Shown: one piece after another, positions 6,295 through 62,767 of the stretch | Position numbering within the stretch: the first letter of the stretch is position 1 | Layout: every line of letters begins with the position of its first letter | Assembly: GCF_016711335.1 (NCBI RefSeq) | Contig: NZ_JADJTF010000001.1 | Span: forward strand, 2,321,401-2,385,400 | Direction: 5' to 3' | Source: Thiofilum sp. | Lineage (GTDB): Bacteria > Pseudomonadota > Gammaproteobacteria > Thiotrichales > Thiotrichaceae | Length of the DNA: 64,000 bases | The notes under the pieces: model-generated | What the model was told of the DNA's origin: nothing | The model's database searches: none | The model's input: only the letters and a program-made list of their open reading frames with translations | Translations under genes and position numbers: made by a program

Positions 6295-6318
6295 CGCTAT
6301 ATAAATTTGGGAATAACG
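6295..6318 (+). promoter_or_regulatory. Putative ModE operator upstream of modA
   Basis: cgctatataaatttgggaataacg: imperfect dyad CGCTATAT...(rc)CGTTATT, resembling the ModE-box class CGnTATATA-N-TATATAnCG. About 26 nt upstream of the modA ATG. Confidence 0.3.
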
Positions 6319-6343
6319 TAACCTACTGAAAAGGAATTAATTA

Positions 6344-7135
6344 ATGAAAGTATTATCCTATGCTTTATTGGCACTTACGCTAGGTTTGAGTGCAGTGCAG
6401 GCGGCTGAGGTACAAGTCGCAGTTGCCTCTAATTTTACTAAGCCGATGGAAAAGATTGCTGAGGCGTTTAAAACCAAAACCGGACACGATGCTAAATTAT
6501 CCTTTGGTGCTTCGGGGGCATTTGTGACCCAAATTAAAAATGGTGCGCCGTTTGAAGTGTTTTTATCAGCGGATGATAAAAAAGCAGCGCCTCTAGTAGA
6601 GGAAAAGTTAGCGATTGCGGATACCGCCTTTATTTATGCCCAAGGTAAATTAGCGCTCTGGTCAGCACAGGATAAATTCGTCGATGATCAAGGTAAGGTT
6701 TTAGAAGGTGATACGTTTAAACATATCGCTATTGCTGATCCTAAACTAGCCCCCTATGGTACTGCGGCTATGCAGGTTCTGGATCAATTAAAGCTTACCG
6801 ATAAAGTGAAAGCTAAAATCGTTCAAGGTGAGAATATTGGTCAAACCATGCAATTTGTAAGTACAGGTAATGCCGAATTAGGGTTTGTCGCTTTGTCTCA
6901 AGTTATCGCTGAACCCTCACAAACAGGCTCAGTGTGGATAGTGCCAGACGACCTATATGCTCCGATTAATCAGCAAGCGGTATTACTCACCAAAGGCGAA
7001 AACAATGAAGCTGCTAAAGCCTTAATGGACTTTTTAAAGTCCAATGAAGCCGTTTCGATTATTGAAACCTTTGGCTATAAAGTACCTGCTACAGAAACAC
7101 CTAGCACTACAACGCCTGATGCTCCTAAGTCCTGA
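6344..7135 (+). CDS. modA: Molybdate ABC transporter substrate-binding protein ModA
   Basis: 263-aa ORF with signal peptide, SNFTKPMEKIAEAFK, SFGASGA and FLSADD motifs typical of ModA. Confidence 0.85.
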   Translation: MKVLSYALLALTLGLSAVQAAEVQVAVASNFTKPMEKIAEAFKTKTGHDAKLSFGASGAFVTQIKNGAPFEVFLSADDKKAAPLVEEKLAIADTAFIYAQGKLALWSAQDKFVDDQGKVLEGDTFKHIAIADPKLAPYGTAAMQVLDQLKLTDKVKAKIVQGENIGQTMQFVSTGNAELGFVALSQVIAEPSQTGSVWIVPDDLYAPINQQAVLLTKGENNEAAKALMDFLKSNEAVSIIETFGYKVPATETPSTTTPDAPKS

Positions 7136-7805
7136 GGATTGGTCGGCTATTGGGCTGACCTTACAGTTAGCCCTTGTCACCACTGTTATTTTATTAGTGA
7201 TGGGTACACCGATTGCATGGTGGTTAGCGACTACGCGCTCGCGTCTTAAAGTGCTAATCGGTTCAGTGGTGGCGTTGCCCTTGGTATTGCCGCCTACGGT
7301 ATTGGGCTTTTATTTATTAGTGTTTCTGAGTCCACAAAGTACCTTAGGGCAATGGATGCAAAGTATCGGGCTTAATACTTTGCCTTTTACCTTTGCGGGA
7401 ATGGTGGTGGCCTCAGTTATTTATTCCGCTCCTTTTGTGATTCAGCCCTTACAAAATGCGTTTGAAACGGTGAATCGTCATTATTTAGAGGTAGCCGCTA
7501 CGTTGGGCGCGTCTAAGCAGCGCACTTTTTGGCAGATTGTGTTGCCTTTGTCGCGGCATGGGATTTTAACCGCCTGTGTGTTGGGGTTTGCGCATACGGT
7601 GGGTGAGTTTGGGGTGGTACTCATGATCGGGGGTAATATTCCCGACCGTACTCGTGTGGTATCGATGCAAATTTATAATCATGTTGAGGCGCTCGAATAT
7701 GAGCAAGCGCATACCTTAGCGTTAGGTATGGTGATATTCGCCTTTGTGGTGCTAGTGATGATGTATTGGCTCAATCAATATACTGCGCCACGTAAGAAGT
7801 ATTGA
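7119..7805 (+). CDS. modB: Molybdate ABC transporter permease ModB
   Basis: ATG at 7119 (MLLSPEDWSAIGLTLQLA, typical ModB start) overlapping the modA end by 17 nt. The longer ORF from 7044 is also possible. Carries the EAA-like loop of ABC permeases. No modC follows. Confidence 0.8.
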   Translation: MLLSPEDWSAIGLTLQLALVTTVILLVMGTPIAWWLATTRSRLKVLIGSVVALPLVLPPTVLGFYLLVFLSPQSTLGQWMQSIGLNTLPFTFAGMVVASVIYSAPFVIQPLQNAFETVNRHYLEVAATLGASKQRTFWQIVLPLSRHGILTACVLGFAHTVGEFGVVLMIGGNIPDRTRVVSMQIYNHVEALEYEQAHTLALGMVIFAFVVLVMMYWLNQYTAPRKKY

Positions 7806-7833
7806 GAACTTTGCTTGATCGCCAAGCCTTTGC

Positions 7834-9831
7834 TCAGTCCCCTAATAAAGCGCTTAAGCTTGCTACATAAGCACTCGCTGTAGCTTGTCTTTGTTCGGGG
7901 GTAATGACTTTCTTATCTTGCCATTCAATATGTTCAGTCGGTAATTCATCTAAAAATCGGCTGGGATCACAGGTTTCTGTTTCACCGTATTTAGTGCGCG
8001 TTTTGGCATAGCTAATGGTTAAATGCTGCTGGGCGCGGGTGATGCCTACATAGGCTAAACGCCGCTCCTCTTGAATACCTTGCGCATCTTGGCTATTCAA
8101 ATGCGGTAGCGTGTCATCTTCCATACCCACTAAAAACACTTGAGGAAATTCTAGCCCTTTTGCAGCGTGCAATGTCATTAAAGTCACTGCATCTTGCTCG
8201 GCTTCCTCACTATTGCGCTCTAATAAATCCACTAAGCTCATATGAGCGACCATTTCGCTAATCGACTCTTTACCCTCACCATCGGCATAGAGTTTGTCCA
8301 TCCATTGCACGACTTCATGCACATTTTCCATACGCTTTTCAGCAATTTTGGGTGAATTGCTGCTTTCATGTAACCAATCCTCATAACGCAACTCGCCCAT
8401 TAAACGCTTCACCATTTCAGGAGGGGGCGTATTATCCGCATCACGACGTAATTGATTTACCCAGCCAGTAAAATTATCTAAGCGTTCTGAGGTTTTATTT
8501 CCCACCCGATCCGCAAAACCCATTTCTTGAGCAGCGGTAAATAAACTTACATGGCGTTGATGCGCATACTCACCTAACTTTTCTAAAGTGCTCGTACCTA
8601 TTTCGCGGCGCGGGGTATTAATTACGCGCAAAAAGGCTGTGTCATCATCGGGATTACTCAGTAGGCGCAAATAGGCTAGGGTATCTTTTACTTCAGTACG
8701 CTCAAAAAATGAAGTACCACCCGTTAATTTATATGGGATTTGATTTTCTCGTAAATACTTTTCAAATAGCCTACTTTGATGATTGCTTCGATATAAAATA
8801 GCAAAGTGTTTAAACGGTATTCGATCTCTAAAACGACGCTTTAGCATTTCGCCTATGATCATTTGTGCTTCATGATCAGCAGTACGACAAGGCATAATTA
8901 AAATCGGCTCACCTTCACCCAAAGTACTCCAAAGCTGTTTTTCAAATAGGTGTGGATTATTGCTAATGAGTTTATTGGCACTTTCTAAAATACGCTTAGT
9001 GGAGCGATAGTTTTGTTCTAGTTTAATTACTTGTAGTGTTGGATAGTCGCGTTGTAATTGAATAATATTTTCTGGACGTGCTCCGCGCCATGCATAAATC
9101 GATTGATCATCATCCCCCACTGCCGTAAATGCACCGCGAATACCCGCTAATTGTTTAACTAATTGATATTGGCAGGCATTAGTATCTTGATATTCATCCA
9201 CTAATAAATAGCGCAGTCTATTTTGCCATTTTTGTAGTACTTCAGGATGTTTCTGAAATAAGCGCACTGGTAAAACGATTAAATCATCGAAATCAACGGC
9301 ATTATAGGCTTTAATTTGGCGCTGATAGTGCTCATAAAGTTTAGCGGCTAATAATTCATCTTCATTAATGGCTTGCTGTAAAGCTTGTTCTGGATTAATA
9401 AAATTATTTTTCCAGCGTGAGATAGCATGACGAATACGCTCTACATCACCCGCTTCAAATTTTTCGGCTAATTCGACTAATACGGATTGGCTATCCTGTG
9501 CATCTAAAATACTAAAACCATTTTTATAGCCTAGACGTTTTACTTCTGATTTAAAAATCGAAAGTCCTAAGGTATGAAAGGTGGAAATGGTTAAGCCTTT
9601 ACCTTCACCTGCGCGTAGTAATTTACCAGCGCGTTCTTGCATTTCGCGTGCAGCTTTATTAGTAAAGGTAATCGCGGCAATACTTTTAGGATCGTAATTA
9701 GCTTGGCGAATGAGCCATGCAATTTTTTCGGTAATAACCCGCGTTTTGCCACTACCAGCTCCGGCTAGTACCAGTAAAGGTGAGCCTAAATGCGTTACCG
9801 CTTCGCGTTGTTGAGGATTTAAGCCAGTCAT
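7834..9831 (-). CDS. rep: ATP-dependent DNA helicase Rep (UvrD/Rep family SF1)
   Basis: Start ATG at 9831 (MTGLNPQQREAVTHLGSPLLVLAGAGSGKT, Walker A). Also DEYQDTN, QNYRST and TLHAAKGLEF motifs. The 665-aa length fits Rep better than UvrD. Confidence 0.75.
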   Translation of the reverse strand: MTGLNPQQREAVTHLGSPLLVLAGAGSGKTRVITEKIAWLIRQANYDPKSIAAITFTNKAAREMQERAGKLLRAGEGKGLTISTFHTLGLSIFKSEVKRLGYKNGFSILDAQDSQSVLVELAEKFEAGDVERIRHAISRWKNNFINPEQALQQAINEDELLAAKLYEHYQRQIKAYNAVDFDDLIVLPVRLFQKHPEVLQKWQNRLRYLLVDEYQDTNACQYQLVKQLAGIRGAFTAVGDDDQSIYAWRGARPENIIQLQRDYPTLQVIKLEQNYRSTKRILESANKLISNNPHLFEKQLWSTLGEGEPILIMPCRTADHEAQMIIGEMLKRRFRDRIPFKHFAILYRSNHQSRLFEKYLRENQIPYKLTGGTSFFERTEVKDTLAYLRLLSNPDDDTAFLRVINTPRREIGTSTLEKLGEYAHQRHVSLFTAAQEMGFADRVGNKTSERLDNFTGWVNQLRRDADNTPPPEMVKRLMGELRYEDWLHESSNSPKIAEKRMENVHEVVQWMDKLYADGEGKESISEMVAHMSLVDLLERNSEEAEQDAVTLMTLHAAKGLEFPQVFLVGMEDDTLPHLNSQDAQGIQEERRLAYVGITRAQQHLTISYAKTRTKYGETETCDPSRFLDELPTEHIEWQDKKVITPEQRQATASAYVASLSALLGD

Positions 9832-9847
9832 GTAATTGTTACCTATT

Positions 9848-10786
9848 TTACCGATGTGTCCACAAACCCAATAGCCAGTTTTTACCACTTACTAATAAAA
9901 TACCCAACAGCACTAAGGCAGCACCCATAATAAAATTAATTTCCAGCGGTTCATGCAAAATCAATACACCCGCTAAGACGCCAAACAGCGGAGTCATAAA
10001 AGAAAATACTCCCAATTGTGCGGCAACATATTTTTTAAGTAAGGCGAACCAAGTTAAATAGCTAAAAAAGGACACAATTACTACTTGAAAAGCTAAGCTA
10101 CTGAGCGCTACCGGAGTAGGGTTGAAGTGCCATTGTCCCAATAGCCCCGCAGTGGCTAAGATCATGATAGCGCTGATAGTGAGCTGATATTGTAGCGTCT
10201 GTGTGGCGGGTGCTTGGGCGAGTGTCGAGCAGCGCACGGTGACGGTGGTCGCCGCCCAACTCAGTCCAGCCCCTAAAGCGAGTATATCCCCCCAGAGTTG
10301 TTGAGGTAGTTGAGTCACAGTGGGCGTGTTTTTACCCAAAAATGCTAGAGCTAGACCAATAAAAGCCAAACCAATGCCGGCCCATTGCAATAAATGTAAA
10401 CGCTCGCTCGGCAGAGTCCAATGCAAAGCAAAGGCGACGAAAATAGGGGCGGTGTATAAGAAAACGACGGTATGGGAGGCGGTGGTATAGCGTAATGCTT
10501 CACCCACTAAAACAAATTCTAACCCAAAAAATAACCCTGCTAATACGCCGCCTCGCCAAGTGTCAGCGGTAATAAAACGTTCGCGCCTAACATACATCAC
10601 TAAACCCACTAATACCGCAGCTAACAAGGAGCGCAAGCCAATTTGAAAAGTAGGAGTGAGATCGGGTGCAGCGAGTTTGAGACTAATTTGTTGCCCGCCC
10701 CAAATCATACAAAGGAGTAGCATGGTTGCCATAGCTTGAGCGTCTAGTGAGCGGCGTGTATTCATCATGGTTAAAGTTAATAGCAC
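9848..10786 (-). CDS. DMT-superfamily (EamA-like) transporter
   Basis: 312-aa ORF with about 10 predicted TM helices and two EamA-like halves. Confidence 0.7.
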   Translation of the reverse strand: MLLTLTMMNTRRSLDAQAMATMLLLCMIWGGQQISLKLAAPDLTPTFQIGLRSLLAAVLVGLVMYVRRERFITADTWRGGVLAGLFFGLEFVLVGEALRYTTASHTVVFLYTAPIFVAFALHWTLPSERLHLLQWAGIGLAFIGLALAFLGKNTPTVTQLPQQLWGDILALGAGLSWAATTVTVRCSTLAQAPATQTLQYQLTISAIMILATAGLLGQWHFNPTPVALSSLAFQVVIVSFFSYLTWFALLKKYVAAQLGVFSFMTPLFGVLAGVLILHEPLEINFIMGAALVLLGILLVSGKNWLLGLWTHR

Positions 10787-10972
10787 AGTGAGTAGGCGGC
10801 GGATTGTAAACTAGGCGGTAGATTTTTGCTGCTGCCATTGTGATTTATAAGGCTTAGGCACTAACTCAGCCTCGATTCAGCATTGGTTAGGCAGTAGCTC
10901 AATATGGTATTACTATTCAGCTCGTTGTAAGCAGCTTATTGGTTGCATAAATAAAATAATTAGAGGCTTGGC

Positions 10973-12226
10973 ATGAAAACTATTGCGTCATTGACATCAT
11001 TTAAACGGATTACTACGTTAGCACTGTGTTCGAGCATGGGGTGGGGATTGATCTCCGTAGTAGAGGCTAATGAGCGCTTGCAGGAAATTGCACCCCCTTG
11101 GATGCAGCCCCAAACCGTCGCCCCCCAAATGGTCAGCACTCCAGCACCTGCTACCGCGGCGATTAATAATGTGCTGAAAGCGGCACAACAAGGACATCCA
11201 CGCGCTCAATATGATCTGGCTTTGATGTATCAGACAGGGCAAGGGGTGAAAAGCGACTTAAAGCAATCTACTTACTGGCTTAATCAAGCGGCTCAAGGGG
11301 GTGAGCCTGAGGCTCAATATTTATTAAGCCAATATTATCACCAAGGTACACTGGGTCGTGCGGATATAAAACGTGCTTTGCATTGGGCAACAGAAGCGGC
11401 TAAACGGGGGCATGTGGAAGCACAATATTGGCTGGGTGTGACTTATGTCAATGGGGATGGGGTAAGAGCGGATGTAGATCAAGGGCGCTATTGGCTCAAA
11501 CAGGCAGCACAACGGGGCTTCAAAGAGGCTCAAGTCGCTTTGCAATCAGTTGTAGCACCAGAAGCTCAAGCAGTAGTTTATAAGCGCCCACCTTCTTCAG
11601 CCTCGCCTGTAGAGTTAGCTTTAAATAGCCCTAATATTGAACCCACTACTCCACCTGATTATCCACCCGCTGCGGCTCCTATGCCTGTACAGTTACCAGA
11701 ACCTGATATGGAGGCTATGTTGGCTGCACCTAATACACCCATTCCATCAGCGATTCAGCGTCAAGTACAAGATCAAGCTGAGGCTAGTGGCGGGGCGCGG
11801 ATTAATCTGAATGGTATGAACCCCAATGATATTTTAGAGCTAGCCAATTCAGGGGATCGTTATGCACAGTTTTTGATTGGCGCTTTATACGAGGAAGGTT
11901 CAGGCGGCTTTAGTCAAAGCTATCGTGAGGCGGCGCGTTGGTATCGCAGGGCAGCACGGCAAAACTACCCAAAGGCACAATATAATTTAGCACTGATGTA
12001 TGAGGATGGACGTGGTGTAGAGCAGGATTATAAACAAGCAGGGCAATGGTATGCTCAAGCCGCTAAAGGTGGCTTTACTAAGGCCAAGAATAATTTAGGT
12101 ATTTTATATGTGACGGGGCGAGGGGTGCGCAAAGATCGCAAAACAGCCGAGTATTTATTCAAACAAGCCGCCCAAGAGGGAGATACCGATGCGGCTTATA
12201 ACTTATCACGCTTGGTGAAGGGGTAG
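10973..12226 (+). CDS. Sel1-repeat (TPR-like) protein, secreted
   Basis: Signal peptide, then at least 7 Sel1 repeats (AQYDLALMYQTGQGVKSD...; AQYNLALMYEDGRGVEQDYKQAGQWYAQAA) separated by a Pro-rich linker. Confidence 0.8.
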   Translation: MKTIASLTSFKRITTLALCSSMGWGLISVVEANERLQEIAPPWMQPQTVAPQMVSTPAPATAAINNVLKAAQQGHPRAQYDLALMYQTGQGVKSDLKQSTYWLNQAAQGGEPEAQYLLSQYYHQGTLGRADIKRALHWATEAAKRGHVEAQYWLGVTYVNGDGVRADVDQGRYWLKQAAQRGFKEAQVALQSVVAPEAQAVVYKRPPSSASPVELALNSPNIEPTTPPDYPPAAAPMPVQLPEPDMEAMLAAPNTPIPSAIQRQVQDQAEASGGARINLNGMNPNDILELANSGDRYAQFLIGALYEEGSGGFSQSYREAARWYRRAARQNYPKAQYNLALMYEDGRGVEQDYKQAGQWYAQAAKGGFTKAKNNLGILYVTGRGVRKDRKTAEYLFKQAAQEGDTDAAYNLSRLVKG

Positions 12227-12260
12227 TGGTTCCTTCTTAAAATCACGAGGTTACTTGGTA

Positions 12261-12308
12261 GTTAAACCCTAATATGTTTGAACTAAGTGTAAGTGGTTAG
12301 GGTTTAAC
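12261..12308. terminator. Possible bidirectional hairpin between convergent genes
   Basis: gttaaaccctaa (12261-12272) and ttagggtttaac (12297-12308) form a 12-bp stem with a 24-nt loop, between the Sel1 gene (+) and the 12304 ORF (-). The loop is long for a canonical terminator. Confidence 0.3.
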
Positions 12309-13300
12309 TGTTTTGTAATAGTTGGGCTAAATCAGAGCGTTTAATTTGGTTTAATGCAGTCGATAATTCACTTAGTTGCTGACGACATTCTAACCATTCC
12401 CATACGCCCTGAGGTTCTAACCCGTGTTTGAATCGGCGGCGATCAGCAACGGGAATTTCAAAAAGATCGGCTAATTTTATCCAGTCATCTTGCAAGCGTT
12501 CACATAGCTGTATTTTGGCTAAACCACTGTAGTTGAGTGTTTGTTGTACAGGGGAGTTTACCCCGATTTGAACCTCAATAACGGTTCGAGTCTGAGCAGC
12601 AATGACTTCATCTTCTTGAAAAGCACTGACCAATAAAGTTTTCTTACCGCACTCAGAACAAGTGACTTGAAAATACTTGGGTTCTGTGTTCTCACCACGT
12701 TTCAAAAGAAATACATAAAAAGGTGGAGTAATTTTACAGTTATCACCCGATGCTTCTACTCGGTAGCGAATGATAGTTTCACTTTCGGGACGGTAAACGT
12801 GTCCCAGTGCAGATTGAGCTTTGGGTAAGTCTGCTAATAGAGTGACAGGTGAATTTGGCTGTTTAATTGAAACAGCTAGGTCAAATGCCTTATTAATAAA
12901 AACTTGTTCTGGACTAGAAACATCTAAACGTATTTTTTCTTCGGGAAAGTGATAGTTATTTTTTATAAATTTATTTGCTTTCTGTGATCCTTTGAACTTA
13001 TTAAATAGCCAAGAGATAGGGCTGATTGAGACTTGCATAATAGCAGAAATAATACTATGGGAAGGTGTGGTGGGATTTTGAATAGTAATAGCATCAAATT
13101 TTGTACCTTGATTTATAGAGATTTCCTCAGAGGAAGCAGCATTAGAACTAATGAGCTCCGTAGATTCCTTAATAAGATCAGCAGATTCCTTTAATGGGGG
13201 GTTTTCACTTCGAGCTTGAATGAGTGTTTTCTCAGTCTCAGCAATGATCGCCTCCAAACGCATTTTTTCCTCAACGCGAGTTTCTAAATCATAGCTTTTA
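12304..13300 (-). pseudogene. 3' portion (about 329 aa) of a TIR-domain gene split by an IS insertion: coiled coil, unknown middle domain, C-terminal helical EAD/death-like region
   Basis: The reading frame continues seamlessly from the TIR ORF at 14573..15202 once the IS and one copy of the target duplication are removed (...LRALYKS|YDLETRVEEKMRLEAIIAE...). The ORF-track start at 13311 is a GTG inside the IS inverted repeat. Confidence 0.7.
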
Positions 13301-14572
13301 TCTCTGTACACGACAAAACCACTAACTTATTGATTTAGCATGTTTGTCATGGAGATGGTGAAAGTCCACCGCTCCTATGTTTTACTCTCTAGTTACCACA
13401 CAGGAGAGCAAAATGGATCTGAGCGATGGACTACGTGACAGTTTAAAAGCCCACTTGAGTTGGGGCAAGCCCCGTTTGGATTGTTTTGTGGGAATGCTGC
13501 ATACTTTGCTGAGTGCGCGACAAATGAATTTGGCGTTGTTGGCGGTACACATAGATTCTGACACCGACATTGGTTCCCGCTATCGACGGATGCAACGCTT
13601 TTTTAGCCAAGTGTTCTTTAATTACAATGACATTGCCCATTTTCTTATGGGAATGTTCGCCTTTAGTGGTCAACAATACTACCTCACACTCGACAGAACC
13701 AACTGGAAATGGGGCAAATCCAACCTCAATCTCCTGACTTTGGCGGTTGTTTACCAAGGTGCGGCTATCCCCGTTTACTGGATGGTGTTGAACAAACGCG
13801 GTAATTCTAACCAACGTGAACGTATTGCCCTGCTGCAACGATTTATCAGCCAATTCGGGCGCAACAACATCTTGGGTGTGTTGGCTGACCGTGAGTTTAT
13901 TGGTGGTCAATGGTGGAAGTGGTTGTCTTCCAAAGAGATTCCCTACTTGATTCGTATCAAGGGTAATCAGTTGATGACCGACAAACACAAAAAAGAGGCG
14001 CATGTCCGCTCGCTGTTTGCCAACCTCAAGCCGGGTAAACGGCGCGTTCTCCGTCACCGTCGCGACGTTAGCGGGGAATGGGTTTGGCTCAGTGGCTCAA
14101 AGCTGCCCAGTGGTGAGTTGTTGATTATCGCCAGCAACCACTACACGGCTGATCCCATTGGCACTTATCGGCTACGTTGGGAAATTGAAAACCTGTTCCA
14201 ATGCTTGAAAGGGCGTGGTTTTCACATGGAAGCCACTCACTTCACCAAACCCCTCGCATCAAAAAGATGATGGCGTTGCTTGCCATTGGCTTCTGTTGGG
14301 CGCACAAAGTCGGCGAATGGAAGGAAAAAGCCGTCAAGCCTTTGAAGACGAAAAAACATGGACGCAAAGAGCAAAGTGTCTTCCGTTACGGCTTGGACTA
14401 CTTGACCGATTTATTGAATGGAAGGGTACGGGAAAAAGTGGATAGGCTTAGGCTGCTGCTTCTGTTCCTTTGTCCACCACAATTCATGGCGATCGAGGAT
14501 GGACGGATGAAACTCAGGCGATTTTCTTTTGAAAAAGATTCAATGAGTTAAGCGAATTGTCGTGTACAGAGA
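13301..14572 (+). mobile_element. IS4-family insertion sequence (1272 bp) with terminal inverted repeats and a 7-bp target-site duplication
   Basis: Perfect 16-bp terminal inverted repeats tctctgtacacgacaa (13301-13316; reverse complement of 14557-14572), extendable to about 26 bp with mismatches. Flanking direct repeat gctttta at 13294-13300 and 14573-14579. Internal transposase has the Y(2)R(3)E(6)K motif. Confidence 0.85.
13377..14551 (+). CDS. IS4-family DDE transposase (split into two frames by a 1-nt indel at the C4 run 14250-14253)
   Basis: ORFs 13377..14270 and 14201..14551 are consecutive parts of one transposase: LADREF (DDE Asp region) and YRLRWEIENLFQCLK (IS4 Y-2-R-3-E-6-K signature). 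Adding one C in cccc restores ...THFTKPPRIKKMMALLAIGFCWAH... Confidence 0.8.
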
Positions 14573-15202
14573 GCTTTTATATAGAGCACGTAGTTTTTCT
14601 TCGAGCCGTGCTCGGCGCTCAGCATTGATGCTAGTCAGTGCACTAGAGCTATTAGGTGCTGGCGGTGGTGAAGTGTTGTTTTGATTAAGAGTGCTGCTAG
14701 AAGTATTGCCTAAAGGTGGGAGTACTTTTTTCGAGCCTAATGGTGGTGGTATATAAGCAGGTTGTTTAGTCAAATAGCGGTATAAATTATCGTAATCATC
14801 GGGTAGGCGGTAACAGTTATAGGCTTTCAAAGGCAACGGAACATGATCTAGGTTGCCCTCATGTGGAATCACCGGAATAAATTTATCGTTACTCTGAAAC
14901 GCATCATATAAAGTTTGTGAAATCACCACACCTTCAAAACTTACACCTCGACCCTTTTCTAAGTCCTGCCCACGATAGCGCTGCAAATAAATCGGGGTAC
15001 ACATCAGCAAAACAAAATCAGCCGTTTCAATCTGCTGCTCCATCCATTTAATCCAACCTTCACGGGGTGAGCCATTAAGGTATTGATCAATTAAAGCCTC
15101 AATGCCATCCGTGCGTAACTGATCCGCAATAGAGCGCACAAAATCACGGTGAGCTGGTGAGTCATGGCTGTAACTAATGAATACTTTGGGGCTAACAGTC
15201 AT
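14573..15202 (-). pseudogene. 5' portion of the IS-split gene: TIR domain plus Pro/Ser-rich linker
   Basis: KVFISYSHDSPAHRDFVRSIADQL is the bacterial TIR hallmark FISYSHD, followed by a linker PPPLGSKKVLPPLGNTSSSTLNQNNTSPPPAPNSSS. The current ORF ends with 10 IS-encoded codons (SLYTTIRLTH*). Confidence 0.75.
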
Positions 15203-15370
15203 AAACAGTACCTAGTTAGGGGATGCTAGCTAATTATACATAACTTTAAACCAATAGTGCCTTATATAATCCCTAAAAGAGTCAATAGAGTAGGTTTAGG
15301 TAACTGTTAGAATGGCATTGTATAATCTAAGACAAACACTATTTTGACGAGTTGCTTAGGAGCCTATCCC

Positions 15371-16090
15371 ATGAAAGCCGTTGCTTCACTGCGCTATGGA
15401 GTGATTTTCAAAAAAGCCTTTTCTCGACCGGAGATTTTCAAAGCCTTTGTCAAAGATATTCTAGGGATCGAGCTACAAATCGATCAGGTAGAAACAGAAA
15501 AATCCTTTGAGCGTCCTATCGGCTCTGTTGATAGCCGTTTTGATCTATTTGCCGAGGATGAAGATATGCTCCAAATCGAATTCGACCCTAAAAATCGTCA
15601 TGGCAAAGGAGTCGGCGAAATTCCACATAAAATCCTCTATTTATGCCCCAAGTATGTCAACGACGAAACGCCTGAAGCATGGCGCGAATGGCTTTTAGCG
15701 ATTAATGATAGCCTTGATGGGGAGGTCAACGAAGCTGATTACCAAAATGCTTGCGTGCAACGTGTCTTACAACTTATTGAAAAAGACCATATCACCCCTG
15801 CTGAATATGCGCGTATGAAAGATGAATACAGCGAGGAACAATTACGCATCAAAGAATGGGAAGAAGCGATAGAGAAAAGCAAAGCTGAAGGTATGCAGCT
15901 TGGAGTGGAAAAGGGTAAGAGTGAGGAAAAATATGAGGTAGCACGACGTATGTTAGCTAAAGGTTTGGATGTTAGTTTAGTCGCAGAGCTAACGGGTTTG
16001 GAGTTGAGTTTGTGCAGGCATTGGTGTAATGAAAAAGTACCCTCTGATTATTTACAATCAGAGAGCATTTTGTCTTTAATGCGGTTTTAG
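15371..16090 (+). CDS. Rpn-family recombination-promoting nuclease / putative transposase (PD-(D/E)XK, YhgA-like)
   Basis: N-terminal LRYGVIFKKAFSRPEIFKAFVKDILGIEL (Rpn/Transposase_31 signature). The RFDLFAEDEDMLQIEFDPK region matches the PD-(D/E)XK pattern. C-terminal EKGKSEEKYEVARRMLAKGLDVSLVAELTGL is the typical Rpn tail. Confidence 0.6.
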   Translation: MKAVASLRYGVIFKKAFSRPEIFKAFVKDILGIELQIDQVETEKSFERPIGSVDSRFDLFAEDEDMLQIEFDPKNRHGKGVGEIPHKILYLCPKYVNDETPEAWREWLLAINDSLDGEVNEADYQNACVQRVLQLIEKDHITPAEYARMKDEYSEEQLRIKEWEEAIEKSKAEGMQLGVEKGKSEEKYEVARRMLAKGLDVSLVAELTGLELSLCRHWCNEKVPSDYLQSESILSLMRF

Positions 16091-16098
16091 GTGGTGTG

Positions 16099-16287
16099 CT
16101 AACGCGCCTCAGTCTTGGTCACGCCGCAGCGCTTACATTTATATAAGGTAATGAGTCTACCCAAGCGTACATCAAATTGTTTTTCTTGCACCAGTTCCCA
16201 TTTGTGAAACTTGCTTTTGCACAGCATTAGCCCTTCACCTTGATCAGCGTCGACACTTTTGCGACGAAACGGAAGTACTTCACCCAT
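16099..16287 (-). CDS. Small hypothetical protein (62 aa), overlaps the bolA stop by 8 nt
   Basis: ORF only. Contains KCKRCG. Co-oriented and overlapping with BolA, which suggests co-transcription. Confidence 0.3.
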   Translation of the reverse strand: MGEVLPFRRKSVDADQGEGLMLCKSKFHKWELVQEKQFDVRLGRLITLYKCKRCGVTKTEAR

Positions 16288-16594
16288 GTTGAGAGCCTCC
16301 CATACATAAAGGCGAATCGGCTACCTTGCCCGCACGAGCAAAATACTCCTCCGGTGTTAAAGTGTGCAACGCTAAAGCGTGGATTTGGGGCAATTCATCC
16401 CTTAAAGCTTGATTGACAAGTCGGTGTCGAGCTACTAATTTCTTGTCTGCAAATTGCTCACTCACGATAGTCACTTTAAAATGCGACTCCGAGCCTTGCG
16501 GGACATTGTGCATATGGCTTTCATTGTCCACCTGCAAAAAGTCAGGAACAAAGGTCGCTTGTAAAGTTGACTCGATCTGAGCTTGGATGCGCAT
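16280..16594 (-). CDS. bolA: BolA-family transcriptional regulator
   Basis: HFKVTIVSEQFADKKLVARHRLVNQALRDELPQIHALALHTLTPEE matches the BolA signature (HF...V.S..F.G...V.RH..V...L......IHAL.....TP.E). Confidence 0.8.
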   Translation of the reverse strand: MRIQAQIESTLQATFVPDFLQVDNESHMHNVPQGSESHFKVTIVSEQFADKKLVARHRLVNQALRDELPQIHALALHTLTPEEYFARAGKVADSPLCMGGSQHG

Positions 16595-16771
16595 AATTAA
16601 CCTCTGAAAACTTGCATATCAATCAATAGTGCGTATATTCCATCATACACATTTAAATGGCTTTTGAGCATGTTTCAATCTACGTCCATCAGGGCGAATT
16701 TGGAAGAGGTTAAAGCTCTCCCCAGCCAGTATATCCCCCTAAAGTGACGGGGTTCAACCAGAGAATTTCTG

Positions 16772-17743
16772 ATGAATCAAAAACAAAATTTTGACAATTT
16801 GGCCCATTATCTCAGCAGTAAAATCATCGGTCAGAGCCAACTCATCAATCGTTTGCTCATTGCCCTCTTAGCCGATGGGCACTTATTAGTAGAGGGTGCA
16901 CCTGGGCTGGCTAAAACACGAGCCATTCAAATACTGGGTCAGGGCATAGAGGGGGATTTTCACCGTGTGCAATTTACTCCCGATCTATTACCCGCTGACA
17001 TCACGGGAACTGAAGTATTTTATCCCAGTGATAGCAGCTTTAAATTTCAAAAAGGTCCACTTTTTCATAATCTGATTCTGGCGGATGAGATCAACCGTGC
17101 GCCTGCTAAGGTACAGTCTGCCCTTTTAGAGGCGATGGCGGAGCGGCAGATTACGGTAGCCGGTACTACATGGAAGCTACCTGAACCTTTTTTAGTCATG
17201 GCCACTCAAAATCCAATTGAGCAAGAGGGTACTTACCAATTACCTGAGGCGCAATTAGACCGCTTTTTAATGCATGTATTGGTCGATTACCCAAACGTGG
17301 ATGAGGAGTACCAAATACTGCAATTGGCTCGCCAAGAAGCGCTCCAGCAAGTACGTCATGACACTAAAGTAAAGCAAGTACTGGTGACACAAGCGGATAT
17401 ATTTGCAGCACGGCAACAAGTATTGAGCCTCTATATGGCACAAAATGTAGAGCAATATATCGTGCAATTAGTCATGGCAACCCGTAAACCCGGACCTTAT
17501 GGTGGATTGCTTAAGGGTAGTATTGCCTTTGGAGCGAGTCCGCGTGCAACTCTAGCCTTAGATCGTTGTTCGCGTGCCTATGCGTGGCTCAAAGGACGTG
17601 ATTTTGTCAGTCCTGAAGACGTTCAAGCAATCGCTCACGATGTGTTGCGTCATCGTATTATTATGACTTTTGAAGCTGAAGCCGACGGTATGACACGCCA
17701 AGGCTTAGTTACTGAATTACTCAATGTGGTGGCAGTACCCTAA
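16772..17743 (+). CDS. MoxR-family AAA+ ATPase
   Basis: Walker A GAPGLAKT, Walker B LILADEINRA, sensor ATQNPIEQEGTYQLPEAQLDRF. First gene of a Bat-like operon. Confidence 0.85.
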   Translation: MNQKQNFDNLAHYLSSKIIGQSQLINRLLIALLADGHLLVEGAPGLAKTRAIQILGQGIEGDFHRVQFTPDLLPADITGTEVFYPSDSSFKFQKGPLFHNLILADEINRAPAKVQSALLEAMAERQITVAGTTWKLPEPFLVMATQNPIEQEGTYQLPEAQLDRFLMHVLVDYPNVDEEYQILQLARQEALQQVRHDTKVKQVLVTQADIFAARQQVLSLYMAQNVEQYIVQLVMATRKPGPYGGLLKGSIAFGASPRATLALDRCSRAYAWLKGRDFVSPEDVQAIAHDVLRHRIIMTFEAEADGMTRQGLVTELLNVVAVP

Positions 17744-18661
17744 ATGCAAGCGGGTGACGGTATTGTTTATAGCTCTTTAAACACCCTTATTCGTTTAAAA
17801 GCACAGGTCGCAGCCTTACAACGCGCTAAAAAACACGCTAAGGCGAGTACGTCGGGTGGGTATCGCACGGTATTTAAAGGGCGCGGGATGGATTTTGCTG
17901 AATCACGCCCTTATCAAGCAGGCGATGATATTCGTACCATTGATTGGCGCGTGACAGCCCGTAGCGGCAAGGTGCATACCAAAGTCTTCCAAGAGGAGCG
18001 TGAACGTCCGGTCATGCTCTGGGTGGATATGCGCCCCTCGATGTATTTTGCTACGCGGGGACGGTTTAAAAGTGTCTTAGCCGCTGAGGTAGCCGCCTTA
18101 TTGGTATGGAAAACCATTGAAGCGGGTGATCGAGTCGGGGGCTTTGTGCAAAGTAGTCACCACTGCGGAGAATTAAAGCCTAGTCATACGCGGGGTGCGG
18201 CCTTGCATTTATTGCGCAGTATTGCGGATACCACCCAATTACAGCCCACTGCTCAGACGGCATTAAATCTATTAGATGATAGTTGGGGGCGTTTAAGGCG
18301 AGTGGCTAGTGCTGGTACTCAAGTACTGATCATTAGTGATTTTAGACAGACTACTCCGGCTGCTTTACGTCAATTAGCTTTAATGTCACAGCATTGTGAG
18401 CTAGGTTTGATTCATATCCAAGACCCCTTTGAAGCACAAATGCCCGCTAATCTGAATGGTAAACTACGCCTCACCGATGGGCGTAATAGTTTATGGATGT
18501 TATTGCAACAACGTTTTCGGGAACGTTATGCTGAGCGCTCTAGTCTACAACTCAAGCAATTAAAACAATTTGCTAGACGGTATCGTATGAGCTTTTTGAC
18601 GTTAAGTACTGATATGAATACTACCGAGCGCCTACGTTTATTAGCGCGGGGTATTGCATGA
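17744..18661 (+). CDS. DUF58 domain protein (VWA-like, MoxR partner)
   Basis: FKGRGMDFAESRPYQAGDDIRTIDWRVTAR is the DUF58 signature. Position directly after MoxR. Confidence 0.8.
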   Translation: MQAGDGIVYSSLNTLIRLKAQVAALQRAKKHAKASTSGGYRTVFKGRGMDFAESRPYQAGDDIRTIDWRVTARSGKVHTKVFQEERERPVMLWVDMRPSMYFATRGRFKSVLAAEVAALLVWKTIEAGDRVGGFVQSSHHCGELKPSHTRGAALHLLRSIADTTQLQPTAQTALNLLDDSWGRLRRVASAGTQVLIISDFRQTTPAALRQLALMSQHCELGLIHIQDPFEAQMPANLNGKLRLTDGRNSLWMLLQQRFRERYAERSSLQLKQLKQFARRYRMSFLTLSTDMNTTERLRLLARGIA

Positions 18662-19149
18662 CCCCCAATACCGCAGAATTACCGCTACGCCCGATTCATT
18701 TTCCTGATCCCGTGGGTTGGTGGCCTCCTGCAATGGGGTGGTGGTTACTATTGGCTTTAATACTGGTAACTATCGGTGCTTTGTTGGTGTGGTATTTCAA
18801 GCGCCAACACAACCAGCAACGCTTGGCTATTCAACAGGCACTTAAAGAATTAGACACCATTGAACAACACTATCAAAACGATAAGCGTCAATTAGTACAG
18901 CACATTTCAGCCTTATTGCGGCGGGTCGCTATGCAGCAATATGGACGTACTGCAACGGCGGGTTTAGCGGGTACGGCTTGGGCAACCTTTTTGCAGCAAG
19001 CAGGCAAGCAAGGTATGAATCCTGATTTAGCCAAAGCATTAAGCGAAATGCCCTATCGCCCGGTGGAAGATGTCAATACTAAGCAATTAGTTGCGCAAGT
19101 ACGTAGTTGGATTAATGCCCAACTCAAACCCCATTTGAGGAGGGCGTAG
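18658..19149 (+). CDS. DUF4381-type membrane protein
   Basis: 163-aa ORF with a single TM helix (WWLLLALILVTIGALLVWYF). Conserved position between DUF58 and BatA in Bat operons. Confidence 0.55.
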   Translation: MTPNTAELPLRPIHFPDPVGWWPPAMGWWLLLALILVTIGALLVWYFKRQHNQQRLAIQQALKELDTIEQHYQNDKRQLVQHISALLRRVAMQQYGRTATAGLAGTAWATFLQQAGKQGMNPDLAKALSEMPYRPVEDVNTKQLVAQVRSWINAQLKPHLRRA

Positions 19150-19150
19150 T

Positions 19151-20131
19151 ATGTACGAACTCTTATGGTGGTGGGCGCTGGCTTTATTACCTTTGCCGCT
19201 AGTGGTGTACTGGTTGTTTCCCAAAATTAGCGCGGACAATACGCTAGCCTTAAAAGTGCCGAGCTTGACTGAGTTTGAATTAGGGGAGTGGGTGGAGCAA
19301 AGTACATGGAGTAGTCGCCTAAAATTATTATTAGCAGGCATGATCTGGGGCACTTTAGTGCTCGCATTAGCGCGTCCGGTTTGGATTGGAGAACCGGTGT
19401 CATTACCGTTTAGTGGGCGTGATTTAATGCTTGCAGTGGATCTGTCTGGCAGTATGCGTGAAGAGGATTTTGAACTAAATGGTCGAGTGGTAGATCGATT
19501 AACAGCGACCCAATGGGTAGCTAGTGATTTCATTCAAAGGCGCCAAGGCGACCGTTTAGGACTGATCGTATTTGCAGATCAAGCCTATTTACAGGTTCCG
19601 CTCACCTTTGATACCGCAACTGTTAGACGTTTAATGCGTGAATCCTTTATTGGTTTAGCGGGCGAGCGCACCGCGATTGGCGATGCGATTGGTCTAGCCC
19701 TCAAACGTTTAAAAGATAATCCTGAAAAAAATCGTGTGCTGATTCTAATGACGGATGGAGCTAATACCGCAGGCTCGGTTAATCCGGCGGAGGCATCTGA
19801 TATGGCGGCAAAGTCGGGATTAAAAATCTATACAGTAGGTATTGGCTCCGAGGCGAATGCAGTGAGAAGTGCGTTTGGATTTTCCTTAACTAATCCTTCG
19901 GCTGACTTGGATGAGGGCTTATTAAAGCTGATTGCCAGTAAAACCGGAGGGCAATATTTCCGTGCACGCGATACCACCGAATTTGAGCGCATCTATACTG
20001 AACTAGATCGTTTAGAGCCGATTGAGCAAGAAGGCAAACAATGGCGACCGCAGCGTGAGTTATTTACTTGGCCTTTGGCACTAGCCTTGTTTCTAGGTGT
20101 GGGTCTATTAGTGTGGAGGCGCATGGAATAA
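19151..20131 (+). CDS. batA: VWA domain protein BatA
   Basis: N-terminal TM helix, VWA MIDAS (LMLAVDLSGSM ... MTDGANT) and C-terminal TM helix. Start overlaps the previous stop. Confidence 0.8.
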   Translation: MYELLWWWALALLPLPLVVYWLFPKISADNTLALKVPSLTEFELGEWVEQSTWSSRLKLLLAGMIWGTLVLALARPVWIGEPVSLPFSGRDLMLAVDLSGSMREEDFELNGRVVDRLTATQWVASDFIQRRQGDRLGLIVFADQAYLQVPLTFDTATVRRLMRESFIGLAGERTAIGDAIGLALKRLKDNPEKNRVLILMTDGANTAGSVNPAEASDMAAKSGLKIYTVGIGSEANAVRSAFGFSLTNPSADLDEGLLKLIASKTGGQYFRARDTTEFERIYTELDRLEPIEQEGKQWRPQRELFTWPLALALFLGVGLLVWRRME

Positions 20132-20132
20132 A

Positions 20133-62191: not shown

Positions 62192-62767
62192 TTACGTTGT
62201 GACCTGACCCGCTTTAAGCATATAGGCTTTGCCGGTATGCGGGCAAATTGCCATCCCGTCACCGGTCAGTGGCAAATCCAGTTTTTCACCGTGTTCGCTC
62301 ATCCAGCCAATCTGTTTGGCAGGTACACCCACCATCAGCGCGTAAGCAGGTACATCTTTGTTAACAACAGTACCTGCACCGATAAAGGCAAATTCTCCAA
62401 TGGTAACACCACAAACGATGGTACAGTTAGCCCCTAACGTTGCACCACGTTTGACTAGGGTATTGCGGTATTCATCCTTACGCTCCACTAATGCCCGTGG
62501 GTTATAAACATTGGTAAATACCATGCTAGGGCCGCAAAACACTCCATCTTCCAGTATTACATTGTCATACACAGAGACATTGTTCTGCACTTTGCATTGA
62601 TTGCCGATCACGACCTTGTTGCCAACGAAGACATTTTGCCCTAGGGATACACCATTACCAATACGAGCACCTCCGCATACATGTGCCCAGTGCCAAACCC
62701 GACTACCGGAACCAATTTGAGCACCTTCATCAACGATAGCAGTGGGGTGGATAAAAATGTCATTCAC
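62192..62767 (-). CDS. wbpD: UDP-2-acetamido-3-amino-2,3-dideoxy-D-glucuronate N-acetyltransferase (WbpD-like, LbH)
   Basis: [49 protein letters not shown] is close to P. aeruginosa WbpD. Confidence 0.75.

What the first reader, a model, noticed from the sequence alone, without database searches (positions are those of the whole stretch)
13294..14579. Complete IS4-family element with perfect 16-bp terminal repeats and a 7-bp target duplication, inserted in frame inside a TIR-domain gene
The 16-bp terminal inverted repeats tctctgtacacgacaa at 13301-13316 and 14557-14572 are perfect. The element is flanked by the direct repeat gctttta (13294-13300 and 14573-14579). Removing the element and one repeat copy fuses the ORFs 14573..15202 and 12304..13300 into one uninterrupted 539-aa reading frame (...ARLEEKLRALYKS|YDLETRVEEKMRLEAIIAE...), with identical codon phase on both sides. 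This is a recent, precise insertion that splits a putative defence gene. It leaves a TIR-only product that now ends in 10 IS-encoded codons (SLYTTIRLTH*). It could be a natural example of IS-mediated inactivation or truncation of an immune effector.
Basis: seen in the sequence. Interest (0 to 1): 0.7.

Follow-up and report, generated by a model that had tools for sequence, protein, structure and literature searches.

The report
ISAba1-like insertion splitting a SEFIR gene
A common kind of jumping gene (an ISAba1-like IS4-family insertion sequence) has landed inside a bacterial immune-type gene of a Thiofilum bacterium, separating its SEFIR/TIR-like domain from its Death-like docking domain; the case is real and clean but biologically ordinary.

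Summary
The insertion is real. The inverted repeats, flanking direct repeat and restored 539-aa reading frame are all as described. Both junctions recur at 100% identity in two further assemblies.

Three corrections:
1. Comparison with ISAba1 and 14 Faucicola copies shows the termini are CTCTG...CAGAG. The element is therefore 13302-14571 (1270 bp), with 15-bp inverted repeats and a 9-bp duplication AGCTTTTAT, as expected for the IS10 subgroup of IS4.
2. This copy is not complete as sequenced. One C is missing from a C5 run (14250-14253), splitting the 379-aa transposase. An intact twin lies on the same 4.0-Mb Thiofilum contig. The defect may be a long-read homopolymer error.
3. The host domain is SEFIR, matching the bSEFIR defence model. 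It is followed by a coiled coil, an Ig-like domain and a bacterial Death-like domain (bDLD3).

No uninterrupted orthologue was found. A 94%-identical paralogue reads straight across the reconstructed junction, and effector-middle domain-adaptor architectures recur elsewhere.

The insertion most likely uncouples effector from adaptor. That step is inferred, not shown.

Verdict: a new member of known kinds; low interest.

The parts
13293..13301 (.).
   Evidence: The 9-bp length is inferred from relatives with the same termini.
13302..14571 (+). ISAba1-like insertion sequence (IS4 family, IS10 subgroup), 1270 bp. G+C is 47% for 13301-14572, against 44% in the flanks.
13302..13316 (+). Left terminal inverted repeat CTCTGTACACGACAA. 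It is identical to the ISAba1 terminus.
13413..14270 (+). Transposase, N-terminal 285-aa ORF. It contains D94, D159, E259 and the YREK motif, and ends prematurely after the frameshift.
14250..14253 (+). C4 homopolymer, the site of the 1-nt deletion that breaks the transposase frame. Close relatives have one more base here (C5 in L003 and L005), and the intact twin P0139 reads ...KPPRIKK...
14255..14551 (+). Transposase C-terminal part (RIKKMMALL...SMS*), now in a different frame within ORF 14201..14551.
14557..14571 (-). Right terminal inverted repeat (the reverse complement of CTCTGTACACGACAA).
14572..14580 (.). [quoted passage not shown]
14573..15202 (-). Host gene, 5' part: codons 1-210. 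As sequenced it is translated to 220 aa, with 10 IS-encoded codons running to the stop at 14540.
   Evidence: P0134.
14771..15190 (-). SEFIR domain (aa 5-144), retained whole in the truncated product.
   Evidence: Pfam SEFIR 1.7e-18, PADLOC bSEFIR 8e-48, PDB 5Y8E 8.6e-12.
12304..13300 (-). Host gene, 3' part: codons 209-539 plus the stop. It is annotated in public records as a 335-aa protein (P0001) starting at a GTG inside the IS (13311).
12568..12942 (-). Ig-like beta-sandwich 'middle' domain (aa 328-452 of the reconstructed protein). It has no Pfam model.
12310..12522 (-). [quoted passage not shown]
   Evidence: Pfam PF20690 at 93.6 bits against a cutoff of 27.1. The model shows a helical bundle at pLDDT 94-98.

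Best explanation
**What it is**
- A 1270-bp ISAba1-like insertion sequence of the IS4 family, IS10 subgroup.
- It inserted by DDE cut-and-paste transposition with a 9-bp staggered target cut at AGCTTTTAT.
- The target lies in the coiled-coil linker of a single 539-aa gene in a Thiofilum sp. genome.

**The host gene**
- It encodes an N-terminal SEFIR (TIR-like) domain of the bSEFIR defence type, then a proline-rich and coiled-coil linker, an Ig-like beta-sandwich, and a C-terminal bacterial Death-like domain (bDLD3).
- bDLD3 is an adaptor thought to dock effectors onto a partner carrying the same domain.

**Consequences for the gene (shown)**
- A 220-aa protein that keeps the entire SEFIR domain, plus 10 IS-encoded residues.
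- A promoter-less 3' fragment encoding the Ig-like and Death-like domains.

**Consequence for function (inferred)**
- The effector is uncoupled from its adaptor, so the system is most likely disabled.

**The element itself**
- The IS belongs to a family with at least a dozen nearly identical copies on the same chromosome, including an intact one.
- The copy in the window has perfect ends, but as sequenced it carries a 1-nt homopolymer deletion in the transposase. This is either a long-read consensus error or a real defect.
- In either case the copy could be moved by the intact twin's transposase.
For: **Sequence anatomy**

**IS4 identity**
- NCBIfam transpos_IS4_2 scores 244 bits against a cutoff of 152. 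Pfam DDE_Tnp_1 also matches.
- The DDE spacers are 64 and 99 aa, and the YREK motif is present.
- The element fits the IS10-subgroup criteria of PMC2266710 Table 1: 1200-1350 bp, CT ends, 9-bp DR.

**ISAba1 relationship**
- 47% amino-acid identity.
- Identical 15-bp termini, and a 9-bp DR in L047.
- 9 of 14 Faucicola copies have perfect 9-bp DRs.

**Intact twin and copy number**
- P0139 (379 aa) equals the window translation after adding one C.
- At least 12 distinct sister proteins lie on the same 4,015,836-bp contig.

**One gene was split**
- The paralogue crosses the junction.
- bDLD3 is in frame.
- The effector-mid-EAD architecture recurs.
- TIR-bDLD3 fusions are described in PMC8195603.

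**Not an assembly artefact**
- L001 and L046, from two other assemblies, match window 14445-21202 and 6304-13425 at 100%. Each ends about 125 nt inside the IS.

**Domains**
Against: - No uninterrupted orthologue of the 539-aa protein was found in 5.8 billion protein clusters. Two metagenome scans also found none. The pre-insertion state therefore rests on a paralogue and on internal evidence.
- The paralogue's homology stops only 61 nt past the insertion site.
- The neighbourhood is housekeeping, not a defence island.
- No partner bDLD3 protein was found in the window or traced to this organism. The defence role and the loss of function are both unverified.
- Both halves remain open reading frames, and the insertion is in all three assemblies. 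Retained or altered function cannot be excluded.
Confidence: 0.9

Rival explanations
1. The element is really intact and autonomous. The missing C at 14250-14253 would then be a consensus error of a long-read assembly in a multi-copy repeat, where short-read polishing works poorly.
For: - The sister copies on the same contig differ almost only by frameshifts at three homopolymers: the C-run, the A-run at 13989-13994 and the G-run at 14073-14076.
- The same frameshift recurs in copies that differ at codons 29-32, which gives a mosaic pattern.
- There are otherwise no substitutions, and an exactly matching intact protein, P0139, exists.
- Unique regions of the window show no such breaks.
- A single 4.0-Mb MAG contig implies long reads (inference).
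Against: - The sequencing technology could not be verified with these tools.
- Homopolymers are also real mutational hotspots.
- A frameshifted master copy mobilised in trans could spread the same defect.
- The two short-read assemblies stop before reaching the site.
Confidence: 0.6
2. The frameshift is real. This copy would then be a non-autonomous derivative with perfect ends, mobilisable only in trans by the intact copy or copies.
For: - The sequence as given has C4. Seven sister proteins (P0121, P0122, P0125, P0129, P0130, P0131, P0132) end at the same ...KPLASKR stop.
- The 285-aa product keeps the DDE and YREK residues but lacks about 94 C-terminal residues.
- The IS4 family is defined by a single ORF without programmed frameshifting (PMC2266710).
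Against: The indel-only, homopolymer-only, mosaic pattern among the copies is more typical of consensus error.
Confidence: 0.4
3. The split is functional rather than disabling. It would yield a free SEFIR module, like the natural 238-aa paralogue, and a separately expressed Ig-like plus Death-like 'adaptor-only' protein that modulates the Death-like signalling network.
For: - A natural SEFIR-plus-coiled-coil-only paralogue of 238 aa exists in the same genome.
- The truncated product keeps the whole SEFIR domain.
- Both halves are still open, and the allele is present in all three assemblies.
- There is a weak hybrid promoter-like site: a -35 TTGTCG in the IS end plus a -10 TATGAT in the host. 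A GAGG-N5-ATG at 13272-13261 could start a 319-aa product.
Against: - The promoter-like match is 9 of 12. The region holds fewer such sites (3) than shuffled sequence (mean 5.6).
- ISAba1's known outward promoter hexamers are not conserved here.
- There are no expression data.
- Open frames are expected for some time after any recent insertion.
Confidence: 0.07
4. The two flanking ORFs were always separate genes, or the junction is an assembly chimera, and the in-frame fusion is a coincidence.
For: - No full-length orthologue was found.
- Public annotation lists the two ORFs as separate proteins.
Against: - The paralogue DNA runs uninterrupted across the exact junction for a further 61 nt.
- A perfect target duplication flanks a bona fide IS.
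- The 329-codon open frame, which includes a bDLD3 domain, continues in the same phase.
- The annotated start of the 335-aa ORF is a GTG inside the IS repeat.
- Two independent assemblies reproduce both junctions.
Confidence: 0.02

Closest known systems
ISAba1 (Acinetobacter; IS4 family, IS10 subgroup)
   Same: - Identical 15-bp termini, CTCTGTACACGACAA.
- 9-bp AT-rich target duplications.
- A single DDE/YREK transposase ORF of about 364-379 aa.
- Size about 1.2 kb. The 9-bp DR is also stated in PMC6412058.
   Different: - Only about 47% amino-acid identity, so this is a distinct element.
- It is 1270 bp long, against 1181 bp for ISAba1.
- ISAba1's outward promoter hexamers (TTAGAA/TTATTT) near the transposase-proximal end are absent.
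- The host is Thiotrichales. Closer relatives at 83-97% nucleotide identity occur in Thiothrix eikelboomii, Ca. Thiothrix namsaraevi and an uncultured gammaproteobacterium.
IS10/Tn10-type elements (IS10 subgroup as defined in 'IS4 family goes genomic', PMC2266710)
   Same: - Size within the 1200-1350 bp range.
- 5'-CT ends.
- YREK motif.
- 9-bp duplication.
- Single ORF.
   Different: - There is no Rfam RNA-OUT or other antisense RNA match.
- Sequence similarity to IS10 itself was not measured.
bSEFIR anti-phage defence protein (Bacillus sp. NIO-1130; Millman et al., bioRxiv 10.1101/2022.05.11.491447)
   Same: - An N-terminal SEFIR domain that scores above TIR.
- The PADLOC bSEFIR model matches at E=8e-48.
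- It aligns with the solved bacterial SEFIR domain 5Y8E.
   Different: - The match covers only model positions 36-282 of 412, and the C-terminal half is different (Ig-like plus bDLD3).
- The gene is not in a defence island.
- No functional test exists.
Effector-bDLD3 fusions of the 'EAD principle' conflict systems (Kaur, Iyer, Burroughs and Aravind, eLife 2021, PMC8195603)
   Same: - A C-terminal bDLD3 with the conserved tryptophans and the RxD motif, fused to a TIR-superfamily effector.
- The organism is filamentous and multicellular, as the paper predicts.
   Different: - No adjacent STAND, MoxR-vWA or FGS partner with a matching bDLD3 was found.
- An extra Ig-like middle domain is present.
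- The gene is interrupted.
IS-mediated disruption of bacterial genes in general
   Same: A precise insertion with a target duplication, truncating the product and orphaning the 3' part.
   Different: Nothing mechanistically different. The only particular feature is that the cut falls exactly between the effector and adaptor modules.

Membership tests
IS4 family (PMC2266710) | DDE catalytic triad with spacing D(60-110)D(100-150)E | tested here: met
   D94, D159 and E259 give spacers of 64 and 99 aa. The second spacer sits at the lower edge of the range. Pfam DDE_Tnp_1 matches at 1.7e-16.
IS4 family (PMC2266710) | Y(2)R(3)E(6)K signature that includes the catalytic E | tested here: met
   YRLRWEIENLFQCLK at residues 252-266.
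IS4 family (PMC2266710) | Single transposase ORF without a frameshift | tested here: inconclusive
   The feature is met by the intact twin P0139 and by relatives L003-L005. It is not met by the window copy as sequenced, which has C4 at 14250-14253. That may be a consensus error.
IS4 family (PMC2266710) | Target duplication of about one helical turn | tested here: met
   The 9-bp duplication AGCTTTTAT. Its length is fixed by relatives with the same termini.
IS4 family (NCBIfam NF033591 equivalog) | Score above the curated cutoff | tested here: met
   244.1 bits against a cutoff of 152.
IS10 subgroup of IS4 | 1200-1350 bp, 5'-CT ends, 9-bp DR | tested here: met
   1270 bp, ends CTCTG...CAGAG, 9-bp DR.
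ISAba1 (same element or isoform) | Near-identical transposase and DNA. My recollection of the ISfinder convention is more than about 95% amino-acid identity; this was not checked here. | tested here: not met
   About 47% amino-acid identity. Only the 15-bp termini are identical. It is a relative, not an isoform.
bSEFIR defence system | An N-terminal SEFIR hit stronger than the TIR hit (the selection rule in 10.1101/2022.05.11.491447) | tested here: met
   SEFIR scores 67.8 bits over aa 5-144, against 52.3 bits for TIR_2. PADLOC bSEFIR matches at 8e-48.
bSEFIR defence system | Full-length similarity to the validated protein | tested here: not met
   Only model positions 36-282 of 412 are matched. 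The C-terminal half consists of different domains.
bSEFIR defence system | Protects against phage; located in a defence island | not testable with these tools
   No experiment was possible. The neighbours are housekeeping genes.
bDLD3 / EAD-principle conflict systems (PMC8195603) | A bDLD3 domain with conserved tryptophans and an RxD motif before the last helix | tested here: met
   Pfam PF20690 scores 93.6 bits. The motifs DDW, VWEW and RSD are visible in the sequence. The model shows a helical bundle at pLDDT 94-98.
bDLD3 / EAD-principle conflict systems (PMC8195603) | A second protein in the genome carrying the same adaptor on a core component (STAND or a ternary system) | tested here: inconclusive
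   None was found in the 64-kb window. The closest N-terminal-bDLD3 proteins are not from Thiofilum. The rest of the genome could not be read.

The most novel reading that the evidence does not exclude
The insertion is not simply a knockout. It converts one effector-adaptor protein into two products. The first is a free SEFIR module resembling the genome's natural 238-aa SEFIR paralogue. The second is an Ig-like plus Death-like 'adaptor-only' protein, expressed from a hybrid IS/host promoter. That second protein could act as a decoy or regulator in a bacterial Death-domain signalling network, much as adaptor-only isoforms do in animal innate immunity.
Probability: 0.06. Interest if true: 0.5.

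Novelty: new member of a known kind. Interest (0 to 1): 0.2.

Why it matters
- **As a case of IS disruption:** it is a clean, well-documented natural example of a mobile element cutting an immune-type gene exactly between its effector (SEFIR) and its Death-like docking domain. It would suit a catalogue of IS-disrupted defence genes.
- **As an experimental handle:** the free SEFIR fragment can be compared with the reconstructed full-length protein to test the 'EAD principle'.
- **As a methods lesson:** terminal T/A ambiguity makes 7-bp and 9-bp duplications indistinguishable without relatives, and homopolymer frameshifts in multi-copy IS of long-read MAGs should not be read as biology without read support.
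- **Overall:** it does not change what is known about IS4 elements or about SEFIR and Death-like systems.

Tried and rejected
1. **Uninterrupted orthologue.**
   - The full-length query returned only SEFIR-domain hits and the fragment itself.
   - The C-terminal query returned the fragment plus two distant proteins.
   - Two exact-pattern scans of JGI metagenome contigs returned nothing. One used the junction and the other used gene-specific sequence next to it.
2. **Sister IS copies from the 4.0-Mb contig.** I wanted to compare their DNA, duplications and frameshifts, but the proteins are not in the positional index. The genome is also absent from the genome contigs representatives.
3. **Plasmid collection, nucleotide search.** No match.
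4. **Rfam scan for RNA-OUT-like or other RNAs.** Nothing.
5. **Sequence match of the transposase to Tn5 or other solved transposases.** Nothing significant.
6. **Programmed frameshift at the C-run.** Rejected for three reasons. The family is defined by a single ORF. Relatives have an extra base at the site (C5 in the closest ones) and one uninterrupted ORF. By my reading of the sequence, the local context ACC AAA CCC CTC offers no good -1 re-pairing.
7. **ISAba1-type outward promoter driving the 3' fragment.** The hexamers are not conserved. The promoter scan found fewer sites than shuffled sequence does.
8. **General assembly quality.** Overlapping ORF pairs elsewhere in the window proved to be distinct genes, not frameshift halves.
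9. **Second IS end at 62562-62577 (3 mismatches).** It lies inside a hexapeptide-transferase gene, so I judged it a chance match.
10. **Partner bDLD3 protein.** Not found.
Full report
**1. Observation**

- TCTCTGTACACGACAA occurs at 13301-13316, and its exact reverse complement at 14557-14572.
- With up to three mismatches, the only other match in the 64-kb window is a 3-mismatch site at 62562-62577. None of 100 shuffles gave three matches.
- GCTTTTA flanks both ends, at 13294-13300 and 14573-14579.
- Deleting 13301-14579 produces a single open 539-aa frame on the minus strand, reading ...ERRARLEEKLRALYKS|YDLETRVEEKMRLEAIIAE....
- The upstream ORF as sequenced (14540..15202, 220 aa) ends in ten IS-encoded codons, SLYTTIRLTH*.

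**2. The mobile element**

*Family assignment*
- After conceptual repair, the encoded protein matches the NCBIfam equivalog 'IS4 family transposase' NF033591 at 244 bits against a cutoff of 152. It also matches Pfam DDE_Tnp_1.
- It has D94, D159 and E259, with spacers of 64 and 99 residues. The family signature Y(2)R(3)E(6)K lies at 252-266.
- These are the hallmarks listed in the IS4 review PMC2266710.

*Closest relatives*
- The closest named relative in annotated records is ISAba1 of Acinetobacter, at about 47% identity over 85% of the protein.
- Closer unnamed relatives occur in four records:
  - Ca. Thiothrix namsaraevi, 97% nucleotide identity;
  - an uncultured gammaproteobacterium, 85%;
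  - Thiothrix eikelboomii ATCC 49788, 83%, as a 1272-bp contig that is simply the collapsed repeat;
  - an uncultured Thiothrix, as a partial copy.

**3. Re-parsing the ends**

The first base of his inverted repeat is T. The string therefore also fits 15-bp repeats with a 9-bp duplication. Relatives decide the matter.
- An ISAba1 copy (L047) has exactly the same 15-bp termini, CTCTGTACACGACAA...TTGTCGTGTACAGAG, and is flanked by the 9-bp duplication TATAATAAT.
- In the complete Faucicola mancuniensis genome, 14 copies of a 41%-identical relative end in CTCTG...CAGAG. Nine of them have perfect 9-bp duplications. Three more have their duplication halves exchanged between copies.
- The base after CAGAG varies among the close relatives (A, G, A, C), so it is not part of the element.

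In the window the element is therefore 13302-14571 (1270 bp). The duplication is AGCTTTTAT, at 13293-13301 and 14572-14580. This fits the IS10 subgroup as tabulated in PMC2266710: 1200-1350 bp, CT ends, 9-bp DR. A 7-bp duplication would have been atypical. The reconstructed host protein is unaffected by the change.

**4. 'Complete'?**

The ends are perfect, but the transposase frame is broken.
- ORF 13413..14270 (285 aa) stops shortly after ...THFTKP. The remainder, RIKKMMALL...SMS, continues in another frame within 14201..14551.
- All four relatives have an extra base at this site, which is C5 in L003 and L005, and carry one ORF of about 379 aa. The window has C4 at 14250-14253.
- The IS4 family is defined by a single ORF without programmed frameshifting, so this is a defect, not a feature.

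The same 4,015,836-bp Thiofilum contig encodes P0139, a 379-aa protein exactly equal to the window translation with one C restored. It also encodes at least a dozen further variants.
- Those variants differ from each other almost only by frameshifts at three homopolymers: the C-run, an A-run at 13989-13994 and a G-run at 14073-14076.
- They also differ at one odd spot, codons 29-32.
- The same frameshift recurs in copies that differ at that spot.

An indel-only, homopolymer-only, mosaic pattern with no ordinary substitutions is what residual long-read consensus errors in a multi-copy repeat look like. Unique regions of the window show no such breaks. I therefore consider an artefact somewhat more likely than a real defect (about 0.6 against 0.4), but I could not reach reads or the sister DNA. 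In either case an intact source of transposase exists in the genome.

**5. Is it one gene that was split?**

*No uninterrupted orthologue*
- No uninterrupted orthologue exists in the collections searched.

*Three other lines of evidence*
1. A paralogue in the same genome and in other assemblies (P0135/P0136, 238 aa; L002 5746-6462) is 94.4% identical in DNA to nt 12-691 of the reconstructed gene.
   - It reads TATAAAAGCTATGATTTAGAAAC straight across the junction at nt 630, with a single copy of the duplicated bases.
   - Its homology continues 61 nt into what is now the far side of the IS.
2. The far side is coding in the same phase. It contains a bDLD3 domain (Pfam PF20690, 93.6 bits). The publicly annotated 335-aa protein (P0001) starts at a GTG inside the IS repeat.
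3. A full HMMER scan with the C-terminal fragment shows two independent modules: a middle domain of about 130 aa, and bDLD3.
   - The middle domain recurs between N-terminal effectors and C-terminal adaptor domains.
   - Examples are Astacin-mid-EAD1, M10-mid-EAD1 and X-mid-EAD7, plus CHAT and TIR contexts.
   - SEFIR-mid-bDLD3 is therefore a natural architecture.
   - TIR-bDLD3 fusions are explicitly described in PMC8195603.

**6. Reproducibility**

- Contig JBARPM010000077.1 of GCA_049643105.1 is 100% identical to window 14445-21202 and ends 128 nt inside the right end of the IS.
- Contig JBATSY010000030.1 of GCA_049293595.1 is 100% identical to window 6304-13425 and ends 124 nt inside the left end.
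- Contigs breaking inside a multi-copy IS are what short-read assemblies do.
- Both fragment proteins carry accessions from three assemblies.
- The insertion is therefore not an assembly chimera. It is present in every sampled instance of this gene.

**7. The host gene and the consequence**

*N-terminal part*
- Residues 5-144 are a SEFIR domain: Pfam 1.7e-18, stronger than TIR_2.
- The domain matches PDB 5Y8E, the Bacillus cereus SEFIR domain, at 8.6e-12, and human Act1 SEFIR at 2.5e-7.
- The PADLOC bSEFIR model matches at 8e-48 but covers only positions 36-282 of 412.
- A SEFIR protein of Bacillus sp. NIO-1130 protects against phage phi29 (bioRxiv 10.1101/2022.05.11.491447).

*C-terminal part*

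An AlphaFold model of the C-terminal fragment (mean pLDDT 80.7) shows the following:
- a long helix at residues 6-36, which is the rest of the coiled coil that the IS cut;
- a disordered stretch at 42-110;
- a beta-sandwich at 124-248, pLDDT 94-98;
- a helical bundle at 263-334, pLDDT 94-98.

The sandwich resembles complement macroglobulin domains and CARDB, which is a generic Ig-like fold. The bundle carries the tryptophans and the RxD motif (RSD) that the bDLD3 paper lists.

*Inferred consequence*
- Under the 'EAD principle' of PMC8195603, the Death-like domain docks the effector onto a partner carrying the same domain.
- The IS leaves a free 220-aa SEFIR protein and an orphaned adaptor fragment, so the most likely consequence is loss of coupling and of function.
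- This step is inference.
  - The neighbourhood is housekeeping: UvrD/Rep helicase, EamA, a Sel1-repeat protein, an Rpn-like ORF, BolA and a MoxR/Bat operon.
  - No partner bDLD3 protein was found in the window or among the closest N-terminal-bDLD3 proteins.
  - No expression or phenotype data exist.

**8. Alternative functional reading**

Several points leave a small chance that the split products do something.
- The genome naturally carries a 238-aa SEFIR-plus-coiled-coil paralogue, next to an AAA_14 ATPase that matches PADLOC candidate system PDC-S01.
- The truncated product is similar to that paralogue.
- Both halves are still open.
- Codon differences from the paralogue are mostly synonymous (28 against 11).
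- A weak hybrid promoter-like site exists. It combines a -35 TTGTCG in the IS end with a -10 TATGAT in the host, and is followed by GAGG-N5-ATG at 13272-13261.

Against this, the promoter scan found fewer sites than shuffled sequence does (3 against a mean of 5.6). ISAba1's known outward promoter hexamers are also absent here.

**9. Verdict**

Three descriptive corrections apply:
- a 9-bp rather than a 7-bp duplication;
- SEFIR rather than generic TIR;
- a transposase frame broken in the sequence as given.

Biologically it is an ordinary event. A new ISAba1-like member of the IS10 subgroup, abundant in this Thiofilum genome, has disrupted a member of a known class of effector-adaptor conflict proteins. 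Novelty: a new member of a known kind. Interest: low (0.2).

Noticed in passing
window 13497-13508 (transposase codons 29-32): This is the only place where the sister transposases on the same 4.0-Mb contig differ in protein sequence. The variants are MLHTLL, MLQLLL, MLQALL, MLQDLL and MLHAFL. Relatives in other taxa read MLLALL at this spot, apart from MLRALM in the most distant one checked (P0146). It is either a consensus-error hotspot, for example at a methylated motif, or a real mutational hotspot. It remains unexplained.
   Followed up: partly
window 12568-12942 (-): An Ig-like beta-sandwich domain of about 130 aa with no Pfam model. It occurs in many of the 772 proteins matched by the P0001 search, typically between an effector (Astacin, M10, CHAT, TIR or SEFIR) and an EAD or Death-like adaptor. 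It may merit a family definition if it is not already named in the Aravind-lab papers.
   Followed up: partly
L002 5746-7657 (GCA_049293595.1; the same genome also carries it): A 238-aa SEFIR paralogue is 94% identical in DNA to the first 691 nt of the interrupted gene and then diverges abruptly, 61 nt past the IS site. It lies tail to tail, 4 nt from an AAA_14 ATPase that matches PADLOC candidate system PDC-S01. This suggests modular shuffling of the SEFIR-linker cassette.
   Followed up: partly
L008, L009, L016 (Faucicola mancuniensis NZ_CP171363.1): Three IS copies have their 9-bp duplication halves swapped among each other: TTTAAAAAC, AAAATTTTT and AACACCAAT. This is a footprint of recombination between IS copies, that is, chromosomal rearrangements. 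L018 and L019 are inverted neighbouring copies.
   Followed up: no
window 15344-16090 (+): A divergently transcribed ORF upstream of the SEFIR gene carries only the C-terminal HTH of Rpn-type recombination-promoting nucleases (precomputed PF27070). My own Pfam scan gave no hit. It may be a truncated Rpn-family gene.
   Followed up: no
window 25418-27749 (-): An AAA/MoxR-like ATPase lies next to a DUF2201 metallopeptidase plus VWA-like protein. The pair is about 12 kb from the SEFIR-bDLD3 gene. No link to bDLD3 systems was established.
   Followed up: no
L005 (Thiothrix eikelboomii ATCC 49788, NZ_FUYB01000048.1): This whole contig is 1272 bp and runs exactly from CTCTG to CAGAG. It is a collapsed repeat contig that delimits the element's ends independently.
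   Followed up: yes
window 13261-13316 (-): A hybrid promoter-like arrangement spans the IS-host junction. It has a -35 TTGTCG in the IS repeat, a 17-nt spacer and a -10 TATGAT in the host, followed by GAGG-N5-ATG. In principle it could express a 319-aa Ig-like plus Death-like protein. The match is weak (9 of 12) and not above the shuffle expectation.
   Followed up: partly
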